Assembly (NCBI RefSeq): GCF_964355755.1
Contig: NC_092676.1
Location: forward strand, 6,487,888 to 6,551,887
DNA length: 64,000 nt
Direction: 5' to 3'
Origin: Antedon mediterranea
Lineage: Eukaryota; Animalia; Echinodermata
Made by a program: the position numbers and the translations under genes. Within the stretch, counting starts at the first letter, position 1, and every line of letters begins with the position of its first letter. The notes beneath the pieces were generated by a model, which worked only from the letters and a program-made list of their open reading frames with translations, was not told the DNA's origin and did no database searches. Below, piece by piece: positions 45,110 to 50,627 of this stretch.

Positions 45110-48100
45110 ATGGAGCAGAAAGGCACAGCCGAGAGAACTTCCCCGGGGAGGAAGAGAGTAGGGTGCTACATACTTGGAGATACAATTGGCGAAGGGTCGT
45201 TTGCAAAGGTTAGAGTTGGTACCCATATTGTGGCGCAGGAAAGGGTATGTTATGAAGTTTCTACTGACTTATTTTTATTTATGCAGTGGTATTGATATTT
45301 TAGTAAATACAATTTTAAACGTCGACATGTACTAAAATAGTACCAGCGTGTTAGACTTAGAGGCGTGGAATGCCCTATTCTCCTCATCGAAAAGAATAGA
45401 TTAGTTCATACCATACTCGAATTTCGTATTAGTATCAGTAAAAATGTAACGAAATAATGTAATTCCAGTCGTATTATAGTGAGTACTGTTTTAGGCCTAT
45501 TCGAAATGTCAATATGTATTACGGTACATTTACTATCAGTATTATTATTATTTGCTGCACCCACAGTTGAGTAGTTCTTGCAGGCGCAGCATACATTTTA
45601 TTTGTACTTTCATTCAGCTGTAAAAGCTACTTGGCAGACCTACTCTTTCTACCCTTTTCAGTCTGTAAGAATGGAAGAATGTCGCACCCTTTCTTTCGTT
45701 TATCAACAACAAAAGCACACGACACGATTCGTTTCCCAATGTTTTTATAACCATCTTGTTCTTAATCATGTAACTCTTATAGGCCTAGGCCTAACAGTCA
45801 TCATGTCTGATCGATAATAATTATTATGTCATTCTTAGAAGTGTTACACGACAGGTGCTCATTCGCATCCAAAATTCATAATATTATATTAATACGGTCT
45901 CTGTTTATTAACCAAGCAGCAGCCTAAGTCCATTGCAAATTGAATTTGAAAATGCAACATTACCTTGTTATTGCATGTCAAGATTATCTTTATTGATTAA
46001 TAATAAAGATTTTGTCCTTCAGCGGACTTTGACACATTTACATTATGCTGTTTCAGGTATTACATTATTCACTAATGTTTAAATATCTGAACCTTCTGAA
46101 TATTTTTTAAACCTCGAATCAGTGGAGTAACATAGAGACTTTGTATGATTTAGGAACCCTACGTGGCCCTCCAAGCCTTGAGGCCTGTTTCGACATAATA
46201 ATGGTAATGCCTGGAACCCCATAAATTCAAGGGCCTCTGGGTTTAGCCAGTGAGCGCTCATAGCCGTTACGGCACTGCCTCAAATCCCCGTCTATTTGAA
46301 ACCCTGGATACGATGTTAGAATTGCGACGATTATTGCACGAGTTCGAAGTACCCTGGTTTCTACGCTTTGGGTTACCCTACACGGCCTAATAAATTAATG
46401 GTTAATTCGGTTAAAATATTATAATTAAATTGTAGATTAATTTACTATTATGATTAGTATAGTTAGTGTGAATTAAAATAAATTCGTATAGCACGTAAAC
46501 CAGTGGAGTGAATTATGTACGTATCAAAAACTGTCCCTTTCAAAGATGTCGATTTGATCATCATTTTAAATCTAAATAATGATTCAATCTCACAAGGATA
46601 ATCAATAGACAATGAATACCAGTAATTATTATACATATTCAATTGCGTGCCAATATATCGACTTAGTAATAGTAAACAAATATCGCGTTGTTGTTTATGA
46701 TAACACCATTTCTTGATCTTGACATTTGATGAAGAAAAGGATGCAAGTCGGTGACCCTTAAAGTTTGGTTCACAATAGAGACACAACACATAGATGTAGA
46801 CATACGCATTGCGAGTTGACCAATGACAAGCGACAGTTCGAATAATCTATCGCTTTTGATTATTCATCAGTTTTTGTTTTGCATATTCATTTTCTATGGG
46901 TTGCGATCAAAATCATCGATAAACGTTTAATTGCCAATCGTGATTACGTCAAAAAGAATTTACGTCGTGAAGCTGATATGATGCGTAAACTTAATCACGC
47001 AAACATCAGCAAACTGTATGAAGTGCTTGAAACGCAGAATAACTACTACCTCGTAATGGAACTTGCCGAAGGAGGAGAGTTTATGCGGTATCTATGCGAC
47101 AGACGGAGACTTTCTGAGCGAGAAACACGAAGGTTTATGCGGCAGTTGGTTTCGGCAGTTGAATATATGCATCAGGAAGAATTGGTTCACAGGTAGGGCC
47201 TACGGAAGTTTGCTATAGTAGTAAAAAAGTCATCAAGCTAGAGGCCACAATGCATCATTAAGCGCGAAACACACGTGATTTGATCAATCTGTCACAATTG
47301 GTCAACTCTCTTGCGTTGCGTCTACGTCCTTGAGTTGGGTCCTAGTAGGGAACCAAGCTTAACGGAGATATGTAAAGTTGAAGATGTCTATATTTTACGA
47401 CTACAACCATTTTCCAAGATAATTATCCATGTTACCCGGATATCCTCCATACTGTACCTTACTTAGGCCTAAGTGTTACGTCGATGTTAATTCCTAAATA
47501 CTTTGCCATATACAAACAATACAAACATTCTTTCTTTCTTTTTCTTTACAACAGGGATATTAAAATTGAAAATTTTCTGTTGGATTCAAACAATGATTTA
47601 AAAGTAATCGGTGAGTACAAAACGAAGAAAGTTTATAATTGTTTAATCTTCTGAACTTCCTAAATTTGCAAGCGAACGTAGGGAAGTTTTGAAACATAAT
47701 GAAGACATATAAAAGAAAGAAAAAAAAGAAATACTTTGTTTGAACATTTTGTCAGTTTCATAGCAATAAAGTATGTCCTATTAAACACAAGACACACCAA
47801 TCGGATAACCGTTGATTTATCTTTTCTTTCATTCGTCAGACTTCGGGCTAAGCAATGTGCTGGGACCAGACGGATTTCTTAGAACACAGTGCGGTTCCCC
47901 AGCGTACGCTGCTCCAGAAATATTTTCTAGTACAGGTTATGGAACAGCGGTAGATGCATGGAGCATGTAAGTAGAAAGAAATGATTTAACTTGATTATGA
48001 CGAGTTGCCAAATCTTACGAATAATAGTAATCAGTAATCAATAATTAAACTTCGACAAACAATCAAACAACAATAATAGACGTTTTGTGCCAAAAATTTT

Positions 48101-50627
48101 CCGCCGGTTAGGCTTACCATGTCAGAAATAAAGCAAGAACATACAAACCAAATTGATCAATTAAAAAAAAAAGCTTCATCAATTTTCAAATTTTCACATT
48201 TTAGCACATTATACTTCGAGTTCATCATTTTTTTTCTCCCCCCCCCCCCCCAATTCAATTTTTTCAAAGGGTCTTACGAATACAGAAAATATTTCTCTGT
48301 AATGTAAATATTATAATATTGCTGAATAAATGAATGGATGAATGAGTTGGAATACATATTTGTGCTCGTTGTTTTAAATGCAAGATGTTTACCTTTTTTC
48401 AGAGGGGTTAATATGTTTGCAATGTTAACGGGTGAACTTCCGTTTAATGTCGACCCGCCTAACAACATGTGCAAACTGCATGCTAAAATAATAGAAGGTT
48501 GTGTCTTCCCAGACTTCCTTACCAAAGGTAAGACTCTAATCACTTAAGTATGGCCATTTCATGAAACATTGAATAGTAAAGCTGGTGGTTAAAGTTGCTC
48601 TTGTATGCCTAAGTAACTTGATTCAAGTCTCAAGAAAGATCATCTTTTCCTTTCTTAATTCATCTTCTTATTACGCATACACTATCGCATGATTTCTGTT
48701 TATATCAATGTAGAAGTTTATAAAAGCTTTTAATTAATAACAGCGTGCACGGTTACCAATAGCTTACAAAATAATTACAGTGGTTAAGAGTAACAACATA
48801 GGGAGTAATTTTAACATGAAAAAACGCAATAACGCTTATTCGTAAGATTTGGCAACTCGTCATAATCAAGTTAAATCATTTCTTTCTAATTCCAGATTGC
48901 AAGGATTTATTAAGCCGTTTATTAACAGTTGATGAAACATCTCGTATTAAACTGAGTGAAGTTTTAAAACACTCCTGGATGAATCGCGGGCACTCCAAAC
49001 GATTGATGGCGTGCTCTTATGATAACCTCATTGCAGACAATCTGAATATGGATGCTATAAGTTATATGTCAGAACTCGGTTACTCCGCCAAAGAAGTTAT
49101 TGAAAATGTGTTACAAAATAGACCAGTTCCAGCAAATGCTGTTTACCATCTTTTGGTTAGAAGACTTGAAAAAGGATGTGGTTTCCCCGATGAAGTCATG
49201 GCGCATGTTCAAAGTGATGTTGATAGAGAAGGTGCCATCACTGACATGAGCTATAGATCTACTAAACATCCAGATAACGCGATGATAAAAGATACAAGTT
49301 TAGAATCAACAATCGGAAATAAAAATAACAGTAGGCCTATAACATGCGGAAGGAGTTATATTATTGACACTCCAACCGAAAGTGGAGCAAGTCAAACACA
49401 GCATCACAATGGAAGAACATCAAAACTAAAACCATCGCAAGATGACGTTGATCATATTTCCGATAGTCTGAAAGAAATTGATCTGAAGAATAACGAAATT
49501 AATTGTTTTAATAATATGATTAGTAGAAATCAAGAAAACAAAACTGACAAATTAAGATCAGTCATAAAAACACAGACATTAAGAAAAAAGTATGATCATT
49601 CCTCATTAACTTGTGCACAAACTCAACAAAGACAATTGTCGGCTATAAAAGAATATAAAGTTCAGTCTGGGACTGCAGAAATATCAGAAACGTTTACAGA
49701 ATCAAAGAAACATCAGACTAGAACACCATCAGATTCATTTCTTCAGAAAACATACAAGGCCGTACGACCTCCTCTTCGGCGGTCAATCTCTCATACTTTA
49801 GGCTGTAACATTGCCGTGCAACCCCATCAAAACGATAACTGTTGTGTTAACAACGGTAGGATAGTAGTAGGCCTAGAGAGTGTTACCAATCATCGTAAAT
49901 GTAGGCCTACGCAATGCAAAAAGAGAGCAGAAACAGTTCCTTCAAAAGATTCATTTAACAGAGCAATTCCAAAAGAGCGGCTGCGTCGCTCAAACACTGA
50001 TCCTTCCATCTACAGTTTTCCACAAAGACCACGTCATCAAGAATATCTAGCAGAGCCGTCCTACGTTCATAGAAGTAAGTCCATTATTAGTTAAAATACA
50101 TAAAATTCTCATTGTTCATAATATGCACCCAGCAAAATACAAAATATCTCCTATAGGCCTTCATCATACGCAGAAAATGGTCCAGAAATTACAGAAGAAA
50201 ACGGGAAATGGTTTGGTTCAAGAATATAAAAAAATAATCATTTTTTTCTGAAGCTCAAGAGATTATCTATAGATATAATATTTTGTTTTCAAATAGCTTT
50301 TTTTATCCTTACTCAAAGTAAGTTATTAATTACATTTTAAATGATATTTTTCACTGTCTTACAGAAGAATTGTCAGTTCAGAAACTCGACATTTGTAGCC
50401 AAAATCCACAGCCGTCTTCGAGGACGATTTCCGGTGCTCTGTTTGGATTCCCGACAAGACTTCGATCTTCTAGTCGAAAGTTGATGAAGCAGAAACGTAC
50501 TCAAGAACACGGTTTAAGCCGCACTACCAACATGCAAAGTGCGACTAAATACATCGGGAGTAGGCCTAGACGAGAAGATACAACTGGGTTACCTAGTTTA
50601 AAACATAAAGATACAGATTTTCGCTAA
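45110..50627 (+). CDS. HUNK: HUNK-like AMPK-related Ser/Thr kinase; 7 exons, 725 aa if the non-canonical exon-2 acceptor is used
   Basis: Exons 45110-45244 ([23 protein letters not shown]), 46900-47192 ([28 protein letters not shown]), 47555-47610 ([10 protein letters not shown]), 47840-47966 ([18 protein letters not shown]), 48403-48527 ([14 protein letters not shown]), 48896-50074 (UBA-like region and long tail), 50365-50627; total 2178 nt. KRVG-Y, KNLRRE and GVNMxAMLTG are HUNK signatures as recalled. Confidence 0.85.
47972..48888. repeat. Perfect 53-bp inverted repeat pair (47972-48024 and 48836-48888)
   Basis: tagaaagaaatgatttaacttgattatgacgagttgccaaatcttacgaataa and its exact reverse complement. 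Confidence 0.95.

What the first reader, a model, noticed from the sequence alone, without database searches (positions are those of the whole stretch)
47967..48895. Perfect 53-bp inverted repeat joins the exon-4 donor to the exon-6 acceptor of the HUNK-like kinase: candidate RNA-structure splicing switch
Seen: one arm starts at nt +6 of intron 4 (47972-48024). Its exact reverse complement (48836-48888) ends 7 nt before exon 6 and supplies that intron's polypyrimidine tract (TTTCTTTCT). I saw no third copy in the window and no TSD or TE-like body. Known: long-range intronic duplexes can cause skipping of the looped-out exon, mask splice signals, promote back-splicing and attract ADAR. Inference: pairing would loop out the 125-nt exon 5 (kinase subdomains IX-X) and juxtapose or mask the two splice sites. 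Skipping gives ..[18 protein letters not shown], a premature stop upstream of the last junction and so an NMD candidate. This would be an on/off switch for the kinase, or a source of an exon-5 circRNA. Perfect identity implies a very recent template-switch copy or selection.
Basis: partly seen in the sequence, partly recalled or inferred. Interest (0 to 1): 0.85.

Follow-up and report, generated by a model that had tools for sequence, protein, structure and literature searches.

The report
Young backwards copy brackets kinase exon
In a feather-star kinase gene, a perfect 53-base backwards copy of the start of one intron sits at the end of the next intron in only one of the two versions of the gene found in the sequenced sample, so it is most likely a recent DNA-copying accident rather than an evolved switch, though it is predicted (untested) to disturb splicing of that version.

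Summary
The 53-bp inverted repeat is real and exactly as described (53/53, 47972-48024 vs 48836-48888, no third copy). But contigs of the best-matching run (X1) hold two alleles: one with arm 2 (depth 24) and one (depth 17) in which exactly those 53 bases are replaced by 21 others that open with a perfect 18-bp A/T palindrome. Arm 1 is on both alleles, and a relative's arm 1 differs at 6 of 53 bases plus gaps. Best reading (about 0.72): arm 2 is a young, still polymorphic template-switch copy of arm 1 (type 3-2-1-4/1-4-3-2, unusually far at 811 nt), probably set off at the palindrome. Perfection reflects youth, not selection. The relative's state at arm 2 was not seen, so an old repeat with a loss allele remains (0.15). 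Folding predicts that the duplex hides the intron-5 branch zone and pyrimidine tract, which would favour retention or an exon-5 circle over clean skipping; the two spliced contigs seen include exon 5. The scan noted similar inverted intron copies in other genomes; here the allele without the copy was also seen. Known kind, good natural test case.

The parts
47972..48024 (+). Arm 1, intron 4 +6 to +58; likely the old template
   Evidence: Exact match; 53-mer contig depth 65 = both alleles of arm 1 plus one of arm 2 (65.85 expected); diverged homologue in run X10
48836..48888 (-). Arm 2, intron 5 -60 to -8; reverse-complement copy of arm 1, on one allele only; replaced by 21 other bases (18-bp perfect A/T palindrome plus 3) on the other allele
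   Evidence: tables 5, 5c, 8 (joint 48835 to 48889, depth 17.2, against 24.3 and 24.4 for the window allele); palindrome
48823..48835 (.). 13 bases left of arm 2 that carry 2 further differences between the alleles (letters not shown by the tool)
   Evidence: table 8, record 6: 2 other letters; contigs part at 48823
48023..48031 (+). 9-nt stretch at the inner end of arm 1 that is the reverse complement of the right end of the arm-less allele; possible primer or filler template
   Evidence: 0.4-1% of window positions have such a match
47840..47966 (+). Exon 4 (DFG to WS of the kinase domain); donor at 47967
48403..48527 (+). Exon 5, 125 nt, looped out by the predicted duplex; its residues are conserved in 9 of 9 homologues
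   Evidence: spliced to exon 6 in contigs of X5 and X9
48896..50074 (+). Exon 6; acceptor AG at 48894-48895; premature stop of the skip product at 48930
45110..50627 (+). Whole coding span of the 7-exon AMPK-related (MARK/HUNK-like) Ser/Thr kinase gene, 725 aa

Best explanation
Arm 2 is present on one of two alleles and is most likely a recent template-switch copy of arm 1 that replaced a 21-base A/T palindrome, so the repeat is likely a young segregating mutation and not an evolved splicing switch. Shown: the two alleles, the exact 53-for-21 replacement, the palindrome starting at the left breakpoint, arm 1 on both alleles, a diverged arm 1 in a relative. Inferred: a fork or break-repair end stalled or broke at the palindrome hairpin, copied 53 nt from the opposite strand about 0.8 kb upstream, and rejoined 3 nt past the palindrome (four-point order 3-2-1-4, mirror 1-4-3-2). 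Predicted, untested: on the arm-bearing allele many transcripts escape because intron 4 can be removed before arm 2 is made (434 nt later); in the rest a 53-bp duplex hides the intron-5 branch zone and pyrimidine tract, giving delayed or failed intron-5 removal, possibly an exon-5 circle, and less often skipping; all non-productive for the kinase. I put a measurable allele-specific effect at about even odds.
For:: X1 contig (94 nt, depth 17.2) joins 48835 to 48889 with 21 other letters; its left breakpoint is the exact end of arm identity and its right one is at the other end; window-allele contigs have depth 24.3 and 24.4, flanks 34-39; 53-mer depth 65 observed, 65.85 expected for arm 1 on both alleles plus arm 2 on one, 83 for both arms fixed. 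X10 contig over exon 4 and intron 4 has 6 substitutions and 1 deletion in arm 1 and a 2-base insertion at its edge; 3 of the 6 break pairing with arm 2; the replaced bases open with an 18-bp perfect palindrome; the 64-kb window has 4 such loci. [quoted passage not shown]: duplex -82 kcal/mol; unpaired probability of the pyrimidine tract 0.01 and branch zone 0.00 against 0.21 and 0.51 on the other allele.
Against: No relative covered arm 2 (0 of 5 other runs laid), so the direction of change is inferred. The arm-less allele has the weaker acceptor: 8 of 17 pyrimidines at -20..-4 against 14 on the window allele and 12-15 in the other 5 introns (8 of 10 for both alleles at -12..-3). Arm 1 differs from X10 more than the next 50 bases do (6-8 of 53 against 2 of 50; Fisher p 0.09-0.27), as expected if arm 1 had been overwritten from an older arm 2. 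There is no clean microhomology at either junction; the 9-nt match fits a single-step gain poorly and needs a second step (loss of the palindrome). The 811-nt reach is far beyond the 100 nt of published short-range surveys. Only 1 of the 4 runs of sample S1 was laid, as contigs, and it may be the source of the window.
Confidence: 0.72

Rival explanations
1. The repeat is older than the split from the relative, was made perfect in this lineage by conversion between the arms, and the arm-less allele is a derived loss in which arm 2 was deleted and a templated, palindromic filler put in.
For: Window allele has the normal pyrimidine tract (14 of 17) and the other a weak one (8 of 17); excess of differences in arm 1 against X10 (p 0.09-0.27); the right end of the 21 bases is the reverse complement of 48023-48031, next to arm 1, as a filler could be.
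Against: Needs two or three events; needs a deletion that ends at both ends of the perfect identity and is carried by the other allele of this very sample; X10's differences in arm 1 break 3 of 6 pairs with the window's arm 2.
Confidence: 0.15
2. One reading: the duplex is a selected regulatory element that shunts kinase transcripts into skipping and decay or into an exon-5 circle (here it would have to be a young allele under positive or balancing selection).
For: Arms abut two splice sites; the skip product has a stop 1144 nt before the last junction; intronic reverse-complementary matches promote skipping and circles in C. elegans (PMC8330042, abstract) and a new Alu pair made TBXT skip an exon (PMC10901737, abstract).
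Against: Absent from one of two alleles; arm 1 not conserved; only exon-5-including contigs seen in X5 and X9 (weak: contigs drop rare forms and those animals' alleles are unknown); only one annotated protein in the cluster; the duplex is predicted to hide the acceptor that skipping needs.
Confidence: 0.05
3. One allele is a library or assembly artefact (amplification chimera, mixed animals, somatic mosaic, or a paralogous copy).
For: Library type not on record; one run laid; depth ratio 24:17 rather than 1:1.
Against: Both junctions of arm 2 and the arm-less path are read-derived at depths that sum to the single-copy level (41.5 against 34-39); both paths rejoin the same unique flanks; a chimera would need two precise switches. 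Mixed animals would still mean polymorphism.
Confidence: 0.05
4. The arms are terminal inverted repeats or scattered copies of a transposon.
For: The window is rich in dispersed inverted repeat copies (194 pairs).
Against: 53-mer depth leaves no room for further copies, no other contig of X1 lies on the arm at 80% likeness (13 laid in all), arm 2 replaces bases and has no target duplication, and the spacer holds a conserved exon.
Confidence: 0.01

Closest known systems
Four-point template-switch mutations, type 3-2-1-4 / 1-4-3-2 (Loytynoja and Goldman 2017, PMC5453318, parts 1-3 of 6 read; Walker et al. 2021, PMC7954356, passages; Loytynoja 2022, 10.1101/2021.11.26.470150, passages)
   Same: One fragment replaced by the exact reverse complement of a nearby fragment, creating a single perfect inverted repeat; heterozygous; A/T tract and hairpin potential at the switch point.
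   Different: Template 811 nt away (surveys required it within 100 nt); 53 nt copied (median 12, maximum 128 in Walker et al.); both arms overlap or abut splice signals; an echinoderm, not an ape.
MMBIR-linked templated insertions (PMC8421209, passages)
   Same: Inverted copy of a nearby template, seen as germline variants.
   Different: Defined there with templates within 100 bp and microhomology at the junctions; here 811 nt and no exact microhomology at either junction.
Inverted intronic repeats that alter splicing: TBXT Alu pair (PMC10901737, abstract), C. elegans reverse-complementary matches (PMC8330042, abstract), 30-40-nt repeats sufficient for circles (PMC4201285, passages)
   Same: A duplex between the two introns flanking one exon, long enough by those standards to pair.
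   Different: No transposon involved; not fixed or conserved; arm 2 covers the branch zone and pyrimidine tract of the downstream acceptor; no splicing effect shown here; PMC4201285 also reports that not all repeats support circles and that stronger hairpins can inhibit them.

Membership tests
Four-point template-switch mutation (3-2-1-4 / 1-4-3-2) | New fragment is the exact reverse complement of a fragment on the same locus | tested here: met
   53 of 53
Four-point template-switch mutation (3-2-1-4 / 1-4-3-2) | An allele exists in which the 1-to-4 fragment is different sequence between the same flanks | tested here: met
   21 other bases between 48835 and 48889
Four-point template-switch mutation (3-2-1-4 / 1-4-3-2) | The repeat-bearing allele is the derived one by outgroup | tested here: inconclusive
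   Outgroup contig covers arm 1 only; no other run covers arm 2; metagenome scans gave nothing usable
Short-range template switch as surveyed (template within 100 nt) | Template within about 100 nt of the change | tested here: not met
   811 nt between arms; criterion in PMC7954356
MMBIR templated insertion | Microhomology at the junctions | tested here: inconclusive
   None exact at either junction; 10 of 18 outer matches (0.74% of positions reach this); 9-nt match at the inner end of arm 1 but to the far side of the palindrome
Conserved RNA-structure splicing element | Both arms fixed and conserved | tested here: not met
   Arm 2 on one of two alleles; arm 1 has 6 substitutions and 1 deletion in X10
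Conserved RNA-structure splicing element | Compensatory changes across species | not testable with these tools
   No relative's arm 2 was obtained
Conserved RNA-structure splicing element | Splicing changes when pairing is broken and returns when restored | not testable with these tools
   Needs minigenes or allele-resolved RNA reads
MITE or other transposon ends | Many copies in the genome | tested here: not met
   53-mer depth 65 fits three allele-copies only; true repeats in the same gene reach depths above 10,000
MITE or other transposon ends | Target-site duplication and an empty site | tested here: not met
   The other allele has replaced bases, not an empty site, and keeps arm 1 and the spacer

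The most novel reading that the evidence does not exclude
A single copying error, reaching 0.8 kb and set off by a palindrome, built in one step a transposon-free RNA duplex that clamps two splice sites of a conserved kinase and at once supplied a stronger pyrimidine tract; it is caught segregating beside its ancestral allele and changes splicing of its own allele measurably. That would be a direct view of how structure-based splicing control is born, in a distance class that short-range surveys do not search.
Probability: 0.3. Interest if true: 0.6.

Novelty: new member of a known kind. Interest (0 to 1): 0.36.

Why it matters
It turns a candidate regulatory switch into a mutation seen together with its likely starting allele. 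A heterozygote gives a built-in control: both alleles in the same cells, differing by the duplex, so allele-resolved RNA reads would measure what a new 53-bp clamp over a branch point and pyrimidine tract does to splicing. It also shows that a perfect intronic inverted repeat next to splice sites is no evidence of function by itself, and that templated inverted copies at 0.1-1 kb fall outside the 100-nt windows of the surveys read here.

Tried and rejected
No whole genome was held, so copy number rests on contig depth. No run was on record as RNA (no RNA holder listed; no evidence either way); X5 and X9 behave as RNA because they hold spliced contigs. X6 and X8 (organism B) had no contig on exon 4 to exon 6 apart from repeats; a filter drops records, so the hole proves nothing. 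A homologue search with exon 6 residues 1-100 found 0 of 41 candidates. Metagenome scan with a 19-mer of the arm: 0 matches; with the exon-6 peptide: 1 of 405 candidates, a 28-residue match at 54% with no inverted repeat of 20 nt, not informative. Rfam: 0 matches at E up to 1 over 47900-48960. A pre-existing long quasi-palindrome at arm 2 was rejected: best ungapped match of the 21 bases to arm 2 is 11 of 21, both A/T-rich. The near absence of other letters in X1 contigs was not used to date the event, because contig building probably removes simple heterozygous sites (own knowledge). A-to-I editing cannot be read from contigs. My exon coordinates were off by one or two bases and were corrected.
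Full report
Observation. The two arms are exact reverse complements over 53 bases, 47972-48024 and 48836-48888, with 811 nt between them; neither end extends, and each occurs once in the window. 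Shuffles of the window gave a longest exact inverted match of 16-22 nt in 20 of 20 trials. Arm 1 begins at +6 of intron 4 and arm 2 ends at -8 of intron 5. Rfam has no match over the region.

The gene. Seven coding exons (45110-45244, 46900-47192, 47555-47610, 47840-47966, 48403-48527, 48896-50074, 50365-50627) give 725 aa, identical at 725 of 725 positions to a RefSeq protein of the feather star Antedon mediterranea, the only member of its cluster. Exon 2 matches MARK and AMPK kinases best; 1 of 9 homologues is named HUNK-like. Exon 5 residues are kept in all 9.

The deciding result. Contigs of run X1 (organism A, 0.94 of the words; possibly the window's own source) break at the arm ends as a two-copy repeat should, and show two paths at arm 2. 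The window path is bridged by contigs 48793-48865 and 48859-48918 at depth 24.3 and 24.4. A second contig of 94 nt at depth 17.2 joins 48835 to 48889 and holds 21 other letters (AATTTTTTATAAAAAATTACT) in place of the 53, plus 2 differences within 48823-48835. The two depths sum to 41.5, near the 34-39 of the unique flanks. The collapsed 53-mer has depth 65; arm 1 on both alleles plus arm 2 on one predicts 65.85, both arms fixed predicts 83. So arm 2 is on one allele, arm 1 is on both, and there is no room for more exact copies in the genome. One of the four runs of that sample was laid.

Direction. Run X10 (organism C label; a relative, sharing three exon-2 differences with organism B's run X6) has one contig, depth 4, over exon 4 and intron 4. 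Arm 1 is there with 6 substitutions and 1 deletion, and a 2-base insertion at its edge; the next 50 bases have 2 substitutions. Arm 1 is therefore old and not held constant, while its partner is a perfect match: the match must be recent. The simplest history is one gain of arm 2, since both breakpoints of the other allele fall at the ends of the identity. None of the five other runs laid covers arm 2, so this is inference. Against it: the arm-less allele has the weaker tract (8 of 17 pyrimidines against 14; 12-15 in the other five introns; 8 of 10 for both alleles near the AG), arm 1 is somewhat over-diverged (Fisher p 0.09-0.27), and the right end of the replaced bases is the reverse complement of the 9 bases at arm 1's inner end (0.4-1% by chance). 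These keep an old-repeat-plus-loss history at about 0.15.

How it likely arose. The first 18 of the 21 replaced bases are a perfect palindrome beginning exactly at the left breakpoint; the window has 4 loci with a palindrome of that length in 64 kb. Its DNA hairpin is modest (about -4 kcal/mol at 37 C and -9 at 15 C with flanks). In the four-point model (PMC5453318, parts 1-3 of 6 read) the order is 3-2-1-4 or its mirror 1-4-3-2, the class that makes one inverted repeat, 31% of human-chimp events; 40 of 76 resolved loci in one human were heterozygous. Walker et al. (PMC7954356, passages) report poly(dA:dT) enrichment at switch points, a median copied length of 12 (maximum 128), and required a template within 100 nt; PMC8421209 (passages) also used 100 bp. 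The present event is longer than typical and eight times farther. Whether it came from a stalled fork or from break repair, and whether the 9-nt match primed it with the palindrome lost in a second step, cannot be told. Supplements of these papers were not read and may list farther events.

What it may do. The RNA duplex is -82 kcal/mol at 37 C. In a fold of 47900-48950 the intron-5 pyrimidine tract and branch zone are almost never unpaired (0.01, 0.00) against 0.21 and 0.51 for the other allele, while donor 4, acceptor 4 and donor 5 change little. Skipping needs that hidden acceptor, so retention or delay of intron 5 and an exon-5 circle are the likelier outcomes (inference). Repeats of 30-40 nt can suffice for circles but not all do (PMC4201285, passages); flanking matches promote both circles and skipping in C. 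elegans (PMC8330042, abstract); a new Alu pair caused TBXT skipping (PMC10901737, abstract). Co-transcriptional removal of intron 4 before arm 2 appears, 434 nt later, would let many transcripts escape (own knowledge, untested). The data in hand: an 890-nt X5 contig joins exon 5 to exon 6, its first 28 letters fit the end of exon 4 by depth arithmetic, and the depth at the start of exon 6 is that of this contig alone (17 joints were not shown); X9 contigs join exon 3 to 4 and exon 5 to 6, and one search lists no skip joint among its 2 joints. Contigs drop rare forms and the alleles of those animals are unknown, so this neither shows nor excludes an effect.

Novelty. The kind of mutation is known. 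In the listings of six paper searches (titles and abstract starts only) I saw no report of a transposon-free template-switch copy that clamps two splice sites and segregates with its starting allele; that is a weak absence. Earlier notes of this scan describe like copies in other genomes (unchecked); none was on this genome. What this case adds is the second allele, which removes the case for an evolved switch and makes the splicing question directly testable.

Verdict. Observation confirmed; interpretation partly supported; new member of a known kind; interest 0.36.

Noticed in passing
window 46898-46899: The intron-1 acceptor reads GG, not AG, in the window and in the X1 contig; run X6 (organism B) has A at 46898, giving AG. 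The RefSeq protein is spliced across it. Nearest AGs are at -29 (frameshift), +57 (in frame, drops the VAIK lysine) and +73. The arm-bearing haplotype may thus already be a weak or null allele, which would relax selection against the repeat; zygosity and phase unresolved.
   Followed up: partly
window 21005-22183: Foldback- or MITE-like element of about 1.2 kb: long terminal inverted arms built of short subrepeats, 97 bp exact and 238 nt at 90%; target duplication not clear.
   Followed up: no
window 46811-46861 and 47297-47362: Pieces of a very high-copy dispersed repeat in introns 1 and 2 (summed contig depth above 10,000); related copies at 1818-1898, 5571-5767 and 37195-37406.
   Followed up: no
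window 301-472, 3284-3392, 11252-11327, 24606-24670, 29145-29204, 43808-43825, 52426-52476: A second dispersed repeat family present in both orientations.
   Followed up: no
window 48966 and 48973: X5 (organism A label, another sample) and X9 (organism B) share two exon-6 differences from the window: shared polymorphism or changes private to the window's haplotype.
   Followed up: no
window 50075-50627: Exon 6 ends at a donor at 50075 and a seventh exon 50365-50627 completes the protein; the in-frame stop at about 50090 lies in intron 6.
   Followed up: yes
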